IMG/VR virus record: IMGVR_UViG_2778261165_000013
Length of the DNA stretch: 12,299 nt
Direction: 5' to 3' (one strand)
From: a virus
Lineage: Duplodnaviria; Heunggongvirae; Uroviricota; Caudoviricetes
In this document: one piece after another, positions 5,351 through 7,600 of the stretch
How the letters are laid out: each line of letters starts with the position of its first letter
How positions within the stretch are numbered: the first letter of the stretch is position 1
The notes under the pieces: generated by a model
The model's input: only the letters and a program-made list of their open reading frames with translations
Told to the model about the DNA's origin: nothing
Databases searched by the model: none
Program-made: the position numbers and the translations under genes

Positions 5351-5776
5351 TCAATGCACAGCCACAATATTTCCTGCAGGGCCACCACGATTCATCTGGT
5401 TGAAACCAGCGATCGCCACTGCGACAAAATCATCAGCGTCTCTCACCAGTCGTTCCCGCGTCTCCACTAGTTCCCGAAAATAGGCTGAGCTATGGCTGCG
5501 CATTCGGGCCACCAGCAGAGGTGGCATTGCTTTTTCGATAGCTGGTAACAACGCCTGAATTTTTTCAACTGCATCAGGGGTGTCTTTCTCTACCCAGCGG
5601 AAAATTTTCTGGGTATTGCGAGCCAGGGCTTCCGGATGGCTGTCGTCATACAGTTCTGGGAACGTCATACCCAGTTCAAAATAAGCCCTGGTTATTTCAG
5701 CTGCCGGAACTTTTTCACCGTCCGGATGCGCCCAGGCATTCATCGCCATGCGGATGTGTTCATGCTTGATTTTCAT
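5351..5776 (-). CDS. ydaT: YdaT-like protein (CII-position gene of the Rac immunity region)
   Basis: 141-aa ORF with an AGGAG Shine-Dalgarno 9 nt upstream of the ATG at 5776; directly downstream of, and overlapping by 17 nt, the Cro-like gene. Symbol assigned by synteny and size; the sequence was not verified from memory. Confidence 0.6.
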   Translation of the reverse strand: MKIKHEHIRMAMNAWAHPDGEKVPAAEITRAYFELGMTFPELYDDSHPEALARNTQKIFRWVEKDTPDAVEKIQALLPAIEKAMPPLLVARMRSHSSAYFRELVETRERLVRDADDFVAVAIAGFNQMNRGGPAGNIVAVH

Positions 5777-6041
5777 GAATCAAGCTCCTAGAAAGTGGTT
5801 GTGTTAACATTTTGGTATCTTCCAGCTCGGGCCAAATATTCATCCAATCAAAAGGCCTTAGTTGCTGACGTGTAACTTCACCATTACTGGCTCGCTCAAT
5901 AAGGACACATAACGATGCCCCTAACACTTGACCTTTACTCAATGCCTTTCTTAGATAACCGATGCTGGTACCACACTCGCATGCAAACATACGCTGTTCA
6001 TCTGACGAAAGAGAATTGAGAAATATTCTTAATTCTTCCAT
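5760..6041 (-). CDS. ydaS: Cro-type helix-turn-helix regulator (YdaS-like)
   Basis: 93-aa ORF with an AAGGAG Shine-Dalgarno 7 nt upstream of the ATG at 6041; helix-turn-helix-like segment QRMFACECGTSIGYLRKALSKGQ; divergent from the repressor gene across an operator-containing 100-bp spacer. Confidence 0.65.
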   Translation of the reverse strand: MEELRIFLNSLSSDEQRMFACECGTSIGYLRKALSKGQVLGASLCVLIERASNGEVTRQQLRPFDWMNIWPELEDTKMLTQPLSRSLIHENQA

Positions 6042-6070
6042 AGCTACTCCTTAGTAAACACAGCAAAGAA

Positions 6071-6148
6071 TACCCATAGGTAAACAAAAGTCAATACCCA
6101 CAGGTTGTTTACCTTGCAGTAATCGCATCTATTATTTACCTATGGACA
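6071..6148. promoter_or_regulatory. Operator cluster (OR-like) in the divergent ydaS / racR control region
   Basis: Copies of a 12-bp near-palindrome TACCYATRGGTA: TACCCATAGGTA at 6071..6082, TACCCACAGGTT at 6095..6106 (24 bp later) and TACCTATGGACA at 6137..6148, the last overlapping the racR start codon. Confidence 0.6.
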
Positions 6149-6561
6149 AATATGAATTTAGACGACAGCAACTCATCAAAATTCGTGATGAGAAATGCGA
6201 TGGTAAAGCGGTTAACGTGGCCAGAAAGATCGGGCGCGAGCCTTCTTATGTATCAAGAATGTTGTACCCAGAGGGGAAAAAGGGAAAAAAACGGATCGCT
6301 GATGATATGGTGGAGATTATCGAAGAGTCCTTTGGGTTACCCCGGGGATGGATGGATGGTATCGTTTCATCATCAACGAACACAGCCTCCAGTTATGAAA
6401 CAAGGGTTCTAACGCCACGACAACGTATTTTTTTAGATCTCTTAGACGAACTGCCAGAAAGTGAAGCGGATAACTTATTAAAAACTCTTGAAGAGAAAAA
6501 ACAGTATTACAATATGATCTACGAAGAAATCCGTAAAAAGAAAGCACAAAACGCATCATAG
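6142..6561 (+). CDS. racR: Prophage repressor-like helix-turn-helix protein (CI analog, RacR position)
   Basis: 139-aa ORF with an N-terminal helix-turn-helix (GKAVNVARKIGREPSYVSRML), divergent from the Cro-like gene and flanked on both sides by the palindromic operator motif. No in-frame upstream start exists before a stop at 6055. Length differs from the 158 aa I recall for K-12 RacR, so this may be a variant immunity type. Confidence 0.65.
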   Translation: MDKYEFRRQQLIKIRDEKCDGKAVNVARKIGREPSYVSRMLYPEGKKGKKRIADDMVEIIEESFGLPRGWMDGIVSSSTNTASSYETRVLTPRQRIFLDLLDELPESEADNLLKTLEEKKQYYNMIYEEIRKKKAQNAS

Positions 6562-6603
6562 CTCACCAAACAACTAGTCACCAGTTAAGACACCGCAAAA
6601 AGT

Positions 6604-6644
6604 TACCCATGGGTATTTACTTTTTAAATACCTATGGGTATCCT
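6604..6644 (+). promoter_or_regulatory. Second operator pair (OL-like) with candidate promoter for the ydaG-ydaF early transcript
   Basis: Perfect palindrome TACCCATGGGTA at 6604..6615 and TACCTATGGGTA at 6629..6640 (25 bp centre to centre). Possible -35 TTTACT (6616..6621) and -10 TATCCT (6639..6644) with a 17-bp spacer overlapping the operators. Confidence 0.5.
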
Positions 6645-6814
6645 TCTTTTCATACCAACCCACCCCGCCCCACAGAATGCAGGGCAATACTCGAGTTACC
6701 AGGCAGTGGTCAGGGGTTAAGTAGCCAGCCCGAGGCGTAAGAACATGACGGCGGGATTCAAATTTTGCAGTGCAGCAGTTAGTTCCGCCACCCGGCGTTA
6801 AGGGGAGAGATAAG

Positions 6815-6949
6815 ATGGTGCATTACGAAGTAGTTCAGTATTTGATGGATTGTTGCGGTATCACTTACAACCAGGCTGTGCAGGCTTTACGCAGCAACGA
6901 CTGGGATCTCTGGCAGGCAGAAGTCGCTATACGTAGCAACAAGATGTGA
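6815..6949 (+). CDS. ydaG: Rac prophage small protein YdaG (44 aa)
   Basis: Hand-translated: MVHYEVVQYLMDCCGITYNQAVQALRSNDWDLWQAEVAIRSNKM. Shine-Dalgarno AAGGGGAGAG upstream. Length matches what I recall for YdaG. Not in the ORF track because it is short. Confidence 0.7.
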   Translation: MVHYEVVQYLMDCCGITYNQAVQALRSNDWDLWQAEVAIRSNKM

Positions 6950-6959
6950 GATTCGCAAA

Positions 6960-7115
6960 ATGCAAAAAATCGACCTCGGCAACAACGAATCCCTGGTGTG
7001 CGGCGTGTTCCCCAACCAGGATGGAACGTTCACTGCCATGACGTATACCAAAAGCAAAACATTTAAAACCGAAACTGGTGCGCGCCGATGGTTGGAGAAG
7101 CACACAGTAAGCTAA
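6960..7115 (+). CDS. ydaF: Rac prophage small protein YdaF (51 aa)
   Basis: Hand-translated: MQKIDLGNNESLVCGVFPNQDGTFTAMTYTKSKTFKTETGARRWLEKHTVS. Starts 10 nt after the ydaG stop; its 3-prime end overlaps the convergent sieB stop by 4 nt. Confidence 0.7.
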   Translation: MQKIDLGNNESLVCGVFPNQDGTFTAMTYTKSKTFKTETGARRWLEKHTVS

Positions 7116-7600
7116 CGATTAAAACGTCTACTCCTGCTGTTCCAGAATAACTTCATAAAATGGGAGTATTTTTCGGTGACGAGATAATAAGAACAGTTTG
7201 CGCTATCACTCTGATGTTGAATGATGCCCTTCCGTTCTAATTTTTTCATAACCAGGTTACGGCAAGGAGAAGTGATAATAAGATTTCCTGTTTTAAGGAA
7301 ATCTTTAAATACAGCGATTTCTTTCTCAGATAAACGAAGCAATACTCGTTGCTCTGGTAGTAATGAATAATGCTTTTGAATATGTGCTCGCAATCTTGAG
7401 AAGGAAATGGCGACCACGAAAGAAAAGGCAAAAACGATAATCTGAAAGAGCCAAGGTATTTCAGTATAAGCATTGAATGCGACAGTAAACTCTTTCGGTA
7501 TCAGCCAGAGAGTGAGACCAAAAATGATAATCGTATACATAAGTCTTTCGAGTGGCTCGTTAGCAAAAAGTTTCAACAATGGAGTAAATACATCCAACAT
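7112..7600 (-). CDS. sieB: Superinfection exclusion protein B (SieB), 162 aa
   Basis: Sequence from MLDVFTPLLKLFANEPLERLMYTIIIFGLTLWLIPKEF… recognised as Rac SieB; membrane helices present. The ATG at 7600 has a GAGAG Shine-Dalgarno; the ORF-track start at 7723 is an unsupported upstream extension. Confidence 0.85.
   Translation of the reverse strand: MLDVFTPLLKLFANEPLERLMYTIIIFGLTLWLIPKEFTVAFNAYTEIPWLFQIIVFAFSFVVAISFSRLRAHIQKHYSLLPEQRVLLRLSEKEIAVFKDFLKTGNLIITSPCRNLVMKKLERKGIIQHQSDSANCSYYLVTEKYSHFMKLFWNSRSRRFNR

What the first reader, a model, noticed from the sequence alone, without database searches (positions are those of the whole stretch)
6071..6644. Five copies of a 12-bp palindrome TACCYATRGGTA flank the repressor gene on both sides, a lambda OR/OL-like layout
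Three sites lie in the 100-bp divergent spacer between the Cro-like and repressor-like genes (6071, 6095, 6137; the last overlaps the racR start codon). Two more, one a perfect palindrome, lie just downstream of racR (6604, 6629) ahead of ydaG-ydaF. Pairs are spaced 24-25 bp apart, suitable for cooperative dimer binding. This suggests the repressor controls both the cro-side promoter and a second promoter feeding ydaG/ydaF towards kilR and recE, and possibly autoregulates.
Basis: seen in the sequence. Interest (0 to 1): 0.55.

Follow-up and report, generated by a model that had tools for sequence, protein, structure and literature searches.

The report
Prophage repressor operators flanking its gene
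The repeated palindromes are very probably the binding sites (operators) of a prophage repressor and its Cro partner, laid out like phage lambda's OR and OL; this is a real but ordinary lambda-type genetic switch whose DNA specificity has not, as far as I could find, been described.

Summary
The repeats are real and far beyond chance. Two weaker copies (6095, 6137) differ from it at two positions each.

Relatives show the conserved motif is TACC-N4-GGTA. The 6137 copy on the start codon has no counterpart in any diverged relative.

Ten diverged phages and prophages with a homologous repressor DNA-binding domain and Cro were examined, including phage mEp043. All ten carry an operator pair 25–26 bp apart at a PL-like promoter, and nine also keep the OR triplet. 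A phage with a different DNA-binding domain lacks the motif.

The sites overlap predicted PR, a leaderless PRM and PL. Homology to K-12 Rac begins about 10 bp after OL1, so the operators travel with the repressor as an immunity module.

The gene is not racR. It is an unrelated 139-aa repressor with a lambda-like helix-turn-helix domain and no peptidase domain.

Verdict: a lambda-style OR/OL operator system, a new member of a known kind. No binding has been tested. Interest is modest.

The parts
6071..6082 (.). OR1, TACCCATAGGTA. It lies in the spacer of the predicted PR promoter and overlaps its -10.
   Evidence: Exact motif match. TACC and GGTA are invariant in 9 of 9 relatives at the same offset from the repressor ATG. 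It overlaps the PR -10 and spacer. It is the reverse complement of OL1.
6095..6106 (.). OR2, TACCCACAGGTT. This is the weaker site. It abuts the -35 of PR and ends 2 bp before the -35 of PRM.
   Evidence: The right half is degenerate in 8 of the 9 aligned sequences (GGTT, GGGC, GAAC or GGCC), while TACC is invariant. It lies 24 bp from OR1. Its centre is about -41.5 from the predicted PRM start, by my own arithmetic.
6110..6121 (.). It overlaps the -35 and spacer of PRM and is the likely site of negative self-regulation.
   Evidence: One mismatch to TACC-N4-GGTA. It reads TACCTTGCGGTA in 28 of 41 haplotypes of the same module. It is the positional homologue (ATG -32) of the third site in the diverged relatives.
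6137..6148 (.). Doubtful fourth copy, TACCTATGGACA, over the repressor start codon.
   Evidence: Two mismatches in the conserved outer bases. The right half is the conserved coding sequence ATGGAC. It is absent from all diverged relatives. It shares the 11-mer TTTACCTATGG with the inverse of OR1 (pair I4). Its status is open.
6604..6615 (.). OL2, TACCCATGGGTA, a perfect palindrome directly followed by the PL -35.
   Evidence: All ten relatives have the same arrangement, GGTA followed by TTGAC, TTTAC or TAGAC.
6629..6640 (.). OL1, TACCTATGGGTA, in the PL spacer and overlapping the -10.
   Evidence: In the relatives a -10-like hexamer starts on the final TA of this site. In mEp043 this promoter scores 10 of 12.
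6067..6094 (-). Predicted PR promoter for the Cro-like gene: TTGACT, 16-nt spacer, TATTCT.
   Evidence: Promoter scan. A Shine-Dalgarno sequence AAGGAG and the ATG at 6041 follow.
6108..6135 (+). Predicted PRM promoter for the repressor: TTTACC, 16-nt spacer, TATTAT. The -10 ends 6 nt before the ATG, so the mRNA would be leaderless.
   Evidence: Promoter scan. There is no Shine-Dalgarno sequence before 6142. In seven of the eight enterobacterial relatives with an OR triplet a -10-like hexamer lies 5-8 nt before the ATG. Leaderless repressor mRNAs are reported for racR (PMC9638921), paaR2 and lambda cI (PMC8630535).
6616..6644 (+). Predicted PL promoter towards ydaG, ydaF, kilR and recE: TTTACT, 17-nt spacer, TATCCT.
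   Evidence: It scores 8 of 12, below the scan threshold, so it is called by its alignment to PR and by the conserved arrangement in relatives. Homology to K-12 Rac starts at 6651, about +1.
6142..6561 (+). Repressor gene, 139 aa, CI-like: an N-terminal helix-turn-helix domain and a helical C-terminal domain. It is not a RacR homologue.
   Evidence: Translation. No similarity to RacR. Matches phrog_5736, 'transcriptional regulator'. The N-terminal 86 residues are 65% identical to phage mEp043 cI. The model has mean pLDDT 81 and its fold matches Xre/lambda-type helix-turn-helix proteins.
5760..6041 (-). Cro-like gene, 93 aa, with a YdaS-like C-terminal half.
   Evidence: Translation. Partial Pfam match to YdaS_toxin and a match to phrog_35. 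It is 51-73% identical to the Cro proteins of eight relatives that carry the motif.
6604..6650 (+). RNA hairpin formed by OL2 and OL1 plus a T-rich tail. It is a possible terminator of the repressor transcript, as a secondary function.
   Evidence: Terminator scan. Folding energy is -24.1 kcal/mol with z = -4.8. No other terminator lies between the stop codon at 6561 and OL, whereas relatives have a separate one.

Best explanation
The palindromes are the operators of a lambda-type immunity switch in a Rac-like defective prophage. The recognised element is TACC-N4-GGTA. It is inferred to be bound by dimers of the 139-aa CI-like repressor (6142-6561) and by the Cro-like protein (5760-6041).

At OR, OR1 (6071) and the weaker OR2 (6095) lie 24 bp apart and cover the -10, spacer and -35 of PR. 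Cooperative occupancy there would shut off cro, the ydaT-like gene and the replication genes. OR2 sits just upstream of the PRM -35, where lambda CI activates PRM. OR3 (6110) overlaps the PRM -35 and would give negative self-regulation at high repressor levels. The repressor mRNA is predicted to be leaderless.

At OL, OL2 (6604) and OL1 (6629) lie 25 bp apart and cover PL in the same geometry as at PR. They would silence the early-left operon (ydaG, ydaF, kilR, recE, recT).

Shown here: the sites, their statistics, their conservation and co-travel with the repressor domain and Cro, and their overlap with promoter-like hexamers. Inferred: binding, cooperativity, activation, and which protein binds which site first.
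For: - Enrichment: there are 3 exact and 5 near matches in 189 bp, against 2 and 24 in 100 kb of host DNA.
- Conserved architecture: nine of ten diverged relatives carry an OR triplet at about ATG -72, -47 and -32. The relatives are E. coli phages mEp043 and CharmingMan, a Mannheimia phage, prophages of Serratia, Yersinia, Salmonella, Pantoea and another E. coli, a Klebsiella-like element and a metagenome contig. All ten carry an OL pair 25-26 bp apart, 43 to 1918 bp beyond the repressor stop codon. In every case a -35 follows the upstream site and a -10 starts on the end of the downstream site.
- Negative control: phage Tritos shares only the C-terminal part of the repressor, has a different helix-turn-helix region, and lacks the motif.
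- Polymorphism footprint in 41 haplotypes of the same module: the outer TACC/GGTA columns vary at 3 of 40 positions, the central N4 at 13 of 20, and other non-coding columns at 27 of 129.
- Promoter scans place PR and PRM on the sites. The PR and PL cassettes are inverted copies of each other.
- The mosaic junction with K-12 Rac lies at 6650/6651, just after PL. K-12 Rac has its own operator type in the same 3+2 layout.
- Published analogues: RacR operators O1-O3 were footprinted (PMC9638921). PaaR2 and YdaS bind OR and also regulate a PL promoter in CP-933P (PMC8630535). Silencing racR derepresses ydaG, kilR and recE in K-12 (bioRxiv 10.64898/2026.09.06.749655).
- Of the first 120 viral contigs that hold a pair of these sites, 73 encode a homologue of the DNA-binding domain within 3.9 kb, and 16 more encode a Cro homologue.
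Against: - No binding, footprint or reporter data exist for this repressor family in anything I could search.
- PL matches the sigma-70 consensus at only 8 of 12 positions and was not called by the scan.
- OR2 and OR3 are only 15 bp apart centre to centre, unlike lambda, so the occupancy logic may differ.
- In this window OR3 carries a G-to-A change in the conserved GGTA.
- Sequence alone cannot separate binding by the repressor from binding by Cro.
- The OL pair also looks like a terminator hairpin.
Confidence: 0.85

Rival explanations
1. The two downstream palindromes (6604-6640) are mainly an intrinsic terminator for the repressor transcript. They would form a 16-bp RNA hairpin followed by a U-rich tract, and would not be operators.
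For: The terminator scan calls this element: 16 pairs, a 5-nt loop and the tail TCCTTCTTTT. Folding energy is -24.1 kcal/mol with z = -4.8. No other terminator lies in the 43 bp after the stop codon, whereas mEp043, CharmingMan and the Pantoea prophage each have a canonical GC-rich terminator upstream of OL.
Against: The same pair, with the same 25-26 bp spacing and embedded -35/-10, occurs in all ten relatives, up to 1.9 kb from the repressor gene and after separate terminators. There it cannot serve as the repressor's terminator. The stem has only 5 G-C pairs. The site sequences are those of OR1 and OR2, and OL1 is the exact reverse complement of OR1. Any two similar palindromes will pair, so the hairpin is partly automatic. 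A terminator role is plausible only in addition to the operator role; I put that added role at about 0.3.
Confidence: 0.05
2. The sites are bound only by the Cro-like protein or by another regulator such as the YdaT/CII-like protein, and the 139-aa protein recognises something else.
For: In 16 viral contigs that carry the site pair, a Cro homologue was detectable although the repressor DNA-binding domain was not at E < 1e-4. The motif therefore tracks Cro at least as well as it tracks the repressor domain.
Against: At least nine of those 16 contigs encode, divergently from cro, a remote CI-like protein of the same build. In the ten closer relatives the repressor recognition region (REPSYVSRML) is nearly invariant along with the motif. 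In lambda, K-12 Rac and CP-933P, repressor and Cro share operators (PMC9638921, PMC8630535). YdaT of CP-933P recognises TTGATT-N6-AATCAA, a different sequence (PMC9986795).
Confidence: 0.07
3. The repeats are non-functional leftovers or chance palindromes in AT-rich intergenic DNA.
For: Each individual 12-mer is short, and the copies at 6095, 6110 and 6137 are imperfect.
Against: The Poisson P is about 1e-9 against the host background. None of 200 shuffles reached the observed count. The outer bases are conserved across genera and across 41 haplotypes.
Confidence: 0.02

Closest known systems
Phage lambda OR (OR1-3) and OL operators with the PR, PRM and PL promoters
   Same: - Three imperfect palindromes lie in the divergent cI-cro spacer, and a further cluster lies at a promoter beyond cI that drives the early-left (kil/recombination) genes.
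- The two strong sites are 24-25 bp apart.
- A weaker middle site adjoins the PRM -35.
- The repressor mRNA is predicted to be leaderless.
- The operators belong to the exchangeable immunity module.
   Different: - The recognition sequence is a 12-bp TACC-N4-GGTA, not lambda's 17-bp site.
- OR2 and OR3 are only 15 bp apart.
- OL has two sites, not three.
- The repressor has no S24 self-cleavage domain, so RecA-driven induction is not expected.
- OL lies 43 bp after the repressor gene with no separate terminator.
K-12 Rac prophage RacR / YdaS operators O1-O3 (W-TAGGC-n3-GCCTA-W; PMC9638921)
   Same: The prophage backbone and gene order are the same. There are three operators in the repressor-cro spacer. 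A pair of sites and a promoter lie between the repressor gene and ydaG. The flanking DNA is 99.7% identical from 6651 onward.
   Different: The repressor is unrelated in sequence. The operator sequence differs, and the RacR motif is absent from the window. In K-12 the third operator spans the ATG; here the conserved third site lies 21 bp upstream of it.
CP-933P PaaR2 / YdaS / YdaT switch of E. coli O157:H7 (PMC8630535)
   Same: A short CI-like repressor without a peptidase domain is encoded by a leaderless gene next to a YdaS-type Cro and a YdaT-type CII. The OR sites are bound by both repressor and Cro, and similar operators at a PL-like promoter are regulated by both.
   Different: The operator half-site differs (GTTTAGTAA) and the site number and spacing differ. 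A toxin-antitoxin pair follows the repressor there. Binding has been shown experimentally for CP-933P but not for this element.
Phage mEp043 cI-cro region (GenBank PV340537 and JQ182734)
   Same: The cI N-terminal domain is 65% identical and Cro is 73% identical. The same TACC-N4-GGTA sites occur at the same offsets in OR, and as a pair on PL upstream of gene N.
   Different: Its cI is 228 aa, and its closest database homologues of that length carry an S24 peptidase domain. A terminator and an extra open reading frame separate cI from OL. I found no paper describing its operators.

Membership tests
Lambdoid immunity-region operators (OR/OL type) | Several copies of one imperfect palindrome lie in the spacer between a divergent repressor gene and cro gene. 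| tested here: met
   Sites at 6071, 6095 and 6110 lie in the 100-bp spacer and are conserved in relatives.
Lambdoid immunity-region operators (OR/OL type) | The sites overlap the two divergent promoters (PR and PRM). | tested here: met
   A consensus scan places PR at 6094-6067 on the minus strand and PRM at 6108-6135 on the plus strand, both over the sites. This is prediction only; no transcript mapping was done.
Lambdoid immunity-region operators (OR/OL type) | A second operator cluster lies at a promoter on the far side of the repressor gene that drives the early-left operon. | tested here: met
   Sites at 6604 and 6629 wrap TTTACT/17/TATCCT. All ten relatives show the same arrangement, and in mEp043 it lies upstream of gene N.
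Lambdoid immunity-region operators (OR/OL type) | The operators travel with the repressor and Cro specificity as an exchangeable module. | tested here: met
   The junction with K-12 Rac lies at 6650/6651. The motif is present with a homologous DNA-binding domain and Cro, and absent with a different domain in phage Tritos.
Lambdoid immunity-region operators (OR/OL type) | Repressor and Cro bind the sites specifically. | not testable with these tools
   This needs gel-shift assays, footprinting or reporter assays.
K-12 Rac RacR operator system | The repressor is homologous to RacR. | tested here: not met
   BLASTP against K-12 RacR finds no significant similarity; the best E-value is 2.3.
K-12 Rac RacR operator system | The operator sequence W-TAGGC-n3-GCCTA-W is present. 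| tested here: not met
   The window has no match near the immunity region. Only three 2-mismatch hits occur elsewhere, at the chance level.
LexA/CI-type self-cleaving repressors (S24 peptidase) | A C-terminal S24 peptidase domain is present. | tested here: not met
   The protein has no Pfam match. The model shows only helices after residue 92. Longer homologues do carry PF00717.
Intrinsic (rho-independent) terminator | A stable stem-loop followed directly by a U-rich tract, downstream of a gene. | tested here: inconclusive
   The hairpin and T-rich tail are present. However, the stem is AT-rich, arises automatically from two palindromic operators, and is not a conserved terminator in relatives.

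The most novel reading that the evidence does not exclude
In this lineage the 37-bp OL2-OL1 pair may do two jobs. As DNA it would be the operator and promoter core of PL. As RNA, at the 3' end of the leaderless repressor transcript, it would fold into the hairpin that terminates that transcript, replacing the separate terminator that relatives keep. The fast-changing central four bases of each operator would then tune both repressor affinity and hairpin strength.
Probability: 0.25. Interest if true: 0.5.

Novelty: new member of a known kind. Interest (0 to 1): 0.3.

Why it matters
It defines the likely operator code (TACC-N4-GGTA) and promoter layout of an immunity group that is widespread in enterobacterial and Pasteurellaceae prophages but has not, as far as I could find, been characterised.

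This particular module sits in about 139 of 5426 complete E. coli genomes. There it holds the toxic kilR gene, the ydaT-like gene and the recET recombination genes silent.

It also shows that 'Rac' prophages come in heteroimmune versions, so results on K-12 RacR cannot be transferred to these strains.

It does not change how lambdoid switches are understood.

Tried and rejected
- Rfam search of the whole window: no family reached its gathering score.
- Folding of the 165-nt PL leader (6651-6815), to look for a put- or nut-like RNA: no more structured than shuffled sequence, z = -0.28.
- Pfam and NCBIfam scans of the repressor: no Pfam family, and only a sub-threshold C-terminal match to DicA.
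- Sequence search of solved structures with the protein and with a profile: nothing significant.
- Fold search: only generic Xre/lambda-type helix-turn-helix matches; the best was the Rep repressor of a Salmonella phage, at E = 1.3e-3.
- Literature searches for the motif strings and for mEp043 operators: nothing relevant.
- Reading the module as K-12 RacR with its operators: rejected.
- Reading the repeats as CP-933P-type operators: rejected, because the half-site differs (PMC8630535).
- Reading the 6137 copy as a conserved operator: not supported by relatives.
- Not done: genome-wide counting in a complete genome. Only 100 kb of host DNA was sampled.

Full report
**What the window is.** The window is a Rac-like defective prophage of a non-K-12 E. 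coli. Bases 5700-7200 are 100% identical to strain SLK172 and 16 other listed genomes. The annotated order there is a YdaT-family protein, a 'transcriptional regulator', a 139-aa 'hypothetical protein', then a small 'phage protein' (the ydaG position), ydaF, sieB, kilR, ydaE, recE, recT, ralR, xisR and intR. Only 139 of 5426 complete genomes cover at least 80% of that 1.5-kb query, while 3868 match some part of it. This already suggests a mosaic.

**The observation.** Exact TACCYATRGGTA occurs at 6071, 6604 and 6629, where shuffles give 0.00. Allowing two mismatches adds 6095 and 6137 and nothing else in the 12.3 kb. Shuffles average 0.73, and none of 200 reached five.

The intergenic spacer is 6042-6141. 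The 6604 site is a perfect palindrome, and 6629 is the exact reverse complement of 6071.

TACC-N4-GGTA occurs twice there, and 24 times with up to one mismatch in the outer bases. The 189 bp of the two intergenic regions hold 3 and 5 respectively, giving P of about 1e-9. The repeats are therefore real and non-random.

**The gene is not racR.** The 139-aa product of 6142-6561 shows no similarity to K-12 RacR and has no Pfam family. It matches phrog_5736 ('transcriptional regulator') over its full length. Its last 50 residues match DicA weakly.

Its first 86 residues are 65% identical to the cI repressor of the lambdoid phage mEp043, which is 228 aa long. Many longer database homologues combine the same N-terminal domain with an S24 peptidase domain.

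A structure model (mean pLDDT 81) shows an N-terminal bundle of helices, a disordered linker at residues 77-87, and two C-terminal helices. Fold search returns Xre/lambda-type helix-turn-helix proteins, and the best hit is the Rep repressor of a Salmonella phage. No sequence relative has a solved structure.

The divergent 93-aa gene (5760-6041) is Cro-like, with a partial YdaS match. The next gene (5351-5776) is YdaT/CII-like.

**What the motif really is.** Eighty IMG/VR contigs carry the same module with a repressor 99-100% identical. In the 41 distinct haplotypes, variation falls in the four central bases of each site (13 of 20 columns vary). The outer TACC and GGTA are nearly fixed (3 of 40). 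Other non-coding columns vary at 27 of 129, and the repressor coding sequence at 18 of 420. Central versus outer gives P = 5e-6, and central versus other non-coding gives P = 1.3e-4.

One of the three variable outer columns is 6118. There the window's A is the minority allele; most haplotypes read TACCTTGCGGTA, a perfect TACC-N4-GGTA.

**Comparative test.** I examined ten diverged relatives whose repressor shares the N-terminal domain:
- E. coli phages mEp043 and CharmingMan
- Mannheimia phage 587AP2
- prophages of Serratia, Yersinia, Salmonella and Pantoea
- a Klebsiella-like element
- a metagenome contig
- another E. coli prophage

Nine of them have three TACC-N4-GGTA sites at about -72, -47 and -32 from the repressor ATG (shifted by about 25 bp in the Mannheimia phage). 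All ten have a pair of sites 25-26 bp apart somewhere downstream, 43 to 1918 bp after the stop codon.

In nine sequences aligned site by site (the window and eight relatives), TACC is invariant in all 45 sites. GGTA is invariant at OR1, OL2 and OL1. The right half of OR2 is degenerate in eight of the nine (GGTT, GGGC, GAAC or GGCC).

The centres favour alternating pyrimidine-purine at OR1, OR2, OL1 and OL2 (28 of 36 sites, where 1 in 16 is expected). They never do so at OR3 (0 of 9).

None of the relatives has a site over the ATG. The right half of the 6137 copy is the conserved Met-Asp coding sequence. That copy is therefore unconfirmed, although it shares an exact 11-mer with the inverse of OR1.

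Phage Tritos shares only the C-terminal part of the repressor, has a different helix-turn-helix region, and lacks the motif. This serves as a negative control.

The Cro proteins of the motif-bearing relatives are all homologous, at 45-80% identity.

Of these, 73 encode a homologue of the repressor domain within 3.9 kb. Sixteen more encode a Cro homologue, and at least nine of those sixteen also encode a remote CI-like protein beside it.

**Promoters.** The scan finds PR on the minus strand (TTGACT at 6094-6089, 16-nt spacer, TATTCT at 6072-6067). It finds PRM on the plus strand (TTTACC at 6108-6113, 16-nt spacer, TATTAT at 6130-6135).
- OR1 lies in the PR spacer and touches its -10.
- OR2 abuts the PR -35 and ends 2 bp before the PRM -35.
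- OR3 overlaps the PRM -35.

The PRM -10 ends six bases before the ATG, and there is no Shine-Dalgarno sequence. The repressor mRNA is therefore predicted to be leaderless. In seven of the eight enterobacterial relatives with an OR triplet, a -10-like hexamer sits 5-8 nt before the ATG. Leaderless repressor mRNAs are reported for racR (PMC9638921), paaR2 and lambda cI (PMC8630535).

PL (TTTACT at 6616-6621, 17-nt spacer, TATCCT at 6639-6644) matches the consensus at only 8 of 12 positions, so the scan did not call it. It aligns base for base with PR read on the other strand. The two cassettes appear as long inverted repeats, 6066-6089 with 6622-6645 and 6086-6105 with 6605-6624. The equivalent promoter scores 10 of 12 in mEp043, upstream of gene N, and 9 of 12 in CharmingMan.

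**Module boundary.** BLAST against K-12 Rac shows 99.7% identity from window 6651 rightwards. To the left there is nothing except a 30-bp patch at 5753-5782. The junction falls about 10 bp after OL1, roughly at +1 of PL.

K-12 Rac has its own three operators (W-TAGGC-n3-GCCTA-W) between racR and ydaS. These are described and footprinted in PMC9638921. K-12 Rac also has two further half-palindromic copies wrapped around a strong promoter-like site (TTGACA/17/TATAGT) between racR and ydaG. That paper never mentions ydaG.

RNA-seq after racR silencing shows derepression of ydaG, kilR, ydaE, racC, recE, recT and other Rac genes (bioRxiv 10.64898/2026.09.06.749655). This fits repressor control of the left operon in the sister element.

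**Mechanism proposed (inferred).** Repressor dimers occupy OR1 and the weak OR2 together, 24 bp apart as in lambda, and shut PR. They likewise occupy OL1 and OL2 and shut PL. Repressor at OR2 is placed to contact RNA polymerase at PRM. OR3 gives negative feedback. The Cro-like protein uses the same sites.

Because the repressor lacks an S24 domain, induction by RecA-stimulated cleavage is not expected. An antirepressor or a dilution route is possible, but I have no evidence for either.

**Rival for the downstream pair.** The two OL sites form a 16-bp RNA hairpin (-24.1 kcal/mol, z = -4.8) followed by TCCTTCTTTT, and the scan calls this terminator-like.

As a sole explanation this fails. The same pair occurs far from the repressor gene, and after separate canonical terminators, in relatives. 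Any two similar palindromes will also pair with each other.

As an added function it is plausible. This lineage has no other terminator between the repressor stop codon and PL, and its hairpin is the tightest of those compared.

**Comparison with known systems, and novelty.** The layout works like lambda OR/OL, and like the K-12 Rac and CP-933P switches. It is not a member of the RacR system: both the protein and the motif tests fail.

I found no publication that gives this operator sequence or the operators of mEp043. That search covers open-access text only.

I file it as a new member of a known kind. The finding is real, mostly correctly interpreted, and biologically ordinary. The side observations are the fast-changing operator centres, the operator-terminator overlap, and the swap of C-terminal domains on one DNA-binding domain. 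These are the only parts that might repay further work.

Noticed in passing
window 6075-6078, 6099-6102, 6114-6117, 6608-6611, 6633-6636: The four central bases of the operators are polymorphic at 13 of 20 columns among 41 near-identical haplotypes. Other non-coding columns vary at 21% and the repressor gene at 4%, and several central columns have three alleles. Most variants keep an alternating pyrimidine-purine centre. The cause is unknown; candidates are affinity tuning, palindrome-templated mutation, or conversion between sites.
   Followed up: partly
window 6604-6650: OL2 and OL1 fold into a 16-bp RNA hairpin with a T-rich tail. This is the only terminator-like element between the repressor stop codon (6561) and PL, whereas relatives keep a separate GC-rich terminator.
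   Followed up: partly
window 6142-6561; L003 2501-3187; proteins P0031-P0117: The same DNA-binding domain (54-82% identical among the listed homologues) is joined to an S24 peptidase domain in many enterobacterial prophages and, to judge by its length, in phage mEp043. Here and in prophages of Serratia and Yersinia it is joined to a short helical, DicA-like domain. This looks like domain swapping at the linker.
   Followed up: partly
L002 3620-3700 (K-12 MG1655 between racR and ydaG): K-12 Rac has two RacR-type half-palindromic sites around a strong promoter-like sequence, TTGACA/17/TATAGT, pointing to ydaG. The paper that defines RacR operators O1-O3 does not mention ydaG.
   Followed up: partly
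window 6650/6651: There is a sharp mosaic junction. DNA to the right is 99.7% identical to K-12 Rac. DNA to the left, as far as about 5753 and beyond, is unrelated. This places the exchange point at about +1 of PL.
   Followed up: yes
L003 3551-3575 and L091 3256-3279: Phage mEp043 and a Pantoea prophage carry an extra wide palindrome, TTACCTG-N8/10-CAGGTAA, just upstream of OL2. It has no counterpart in the window.
   Followed up: no
L103, L108, L115, L136, L141 and others: Some viral contigs keep the TACC-N4-GGTA pairs and a Cro homologue, but encode a much more distant CI-like protein with a different recognition-helix sequence (GINQGELSGLL).
   Followed up: partly
proteins P0005, P0012, P0018: Database copies of the repressor have frameshift-like scrambled stretches in the helix-turn-helix region, which suggests decay of the module in some genomes.
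   Followed up: no
L001 1-4500 and 8809-9083 (strain SLK172): In the identical strain the prophage is cut short on the late-gene side: a DUF977 gene is followed directly by host genes for a BCCT transporter and a DUF2254 protein. The racC-position gene is frameshifted and intR carries an internal stop.
   Followed up: no
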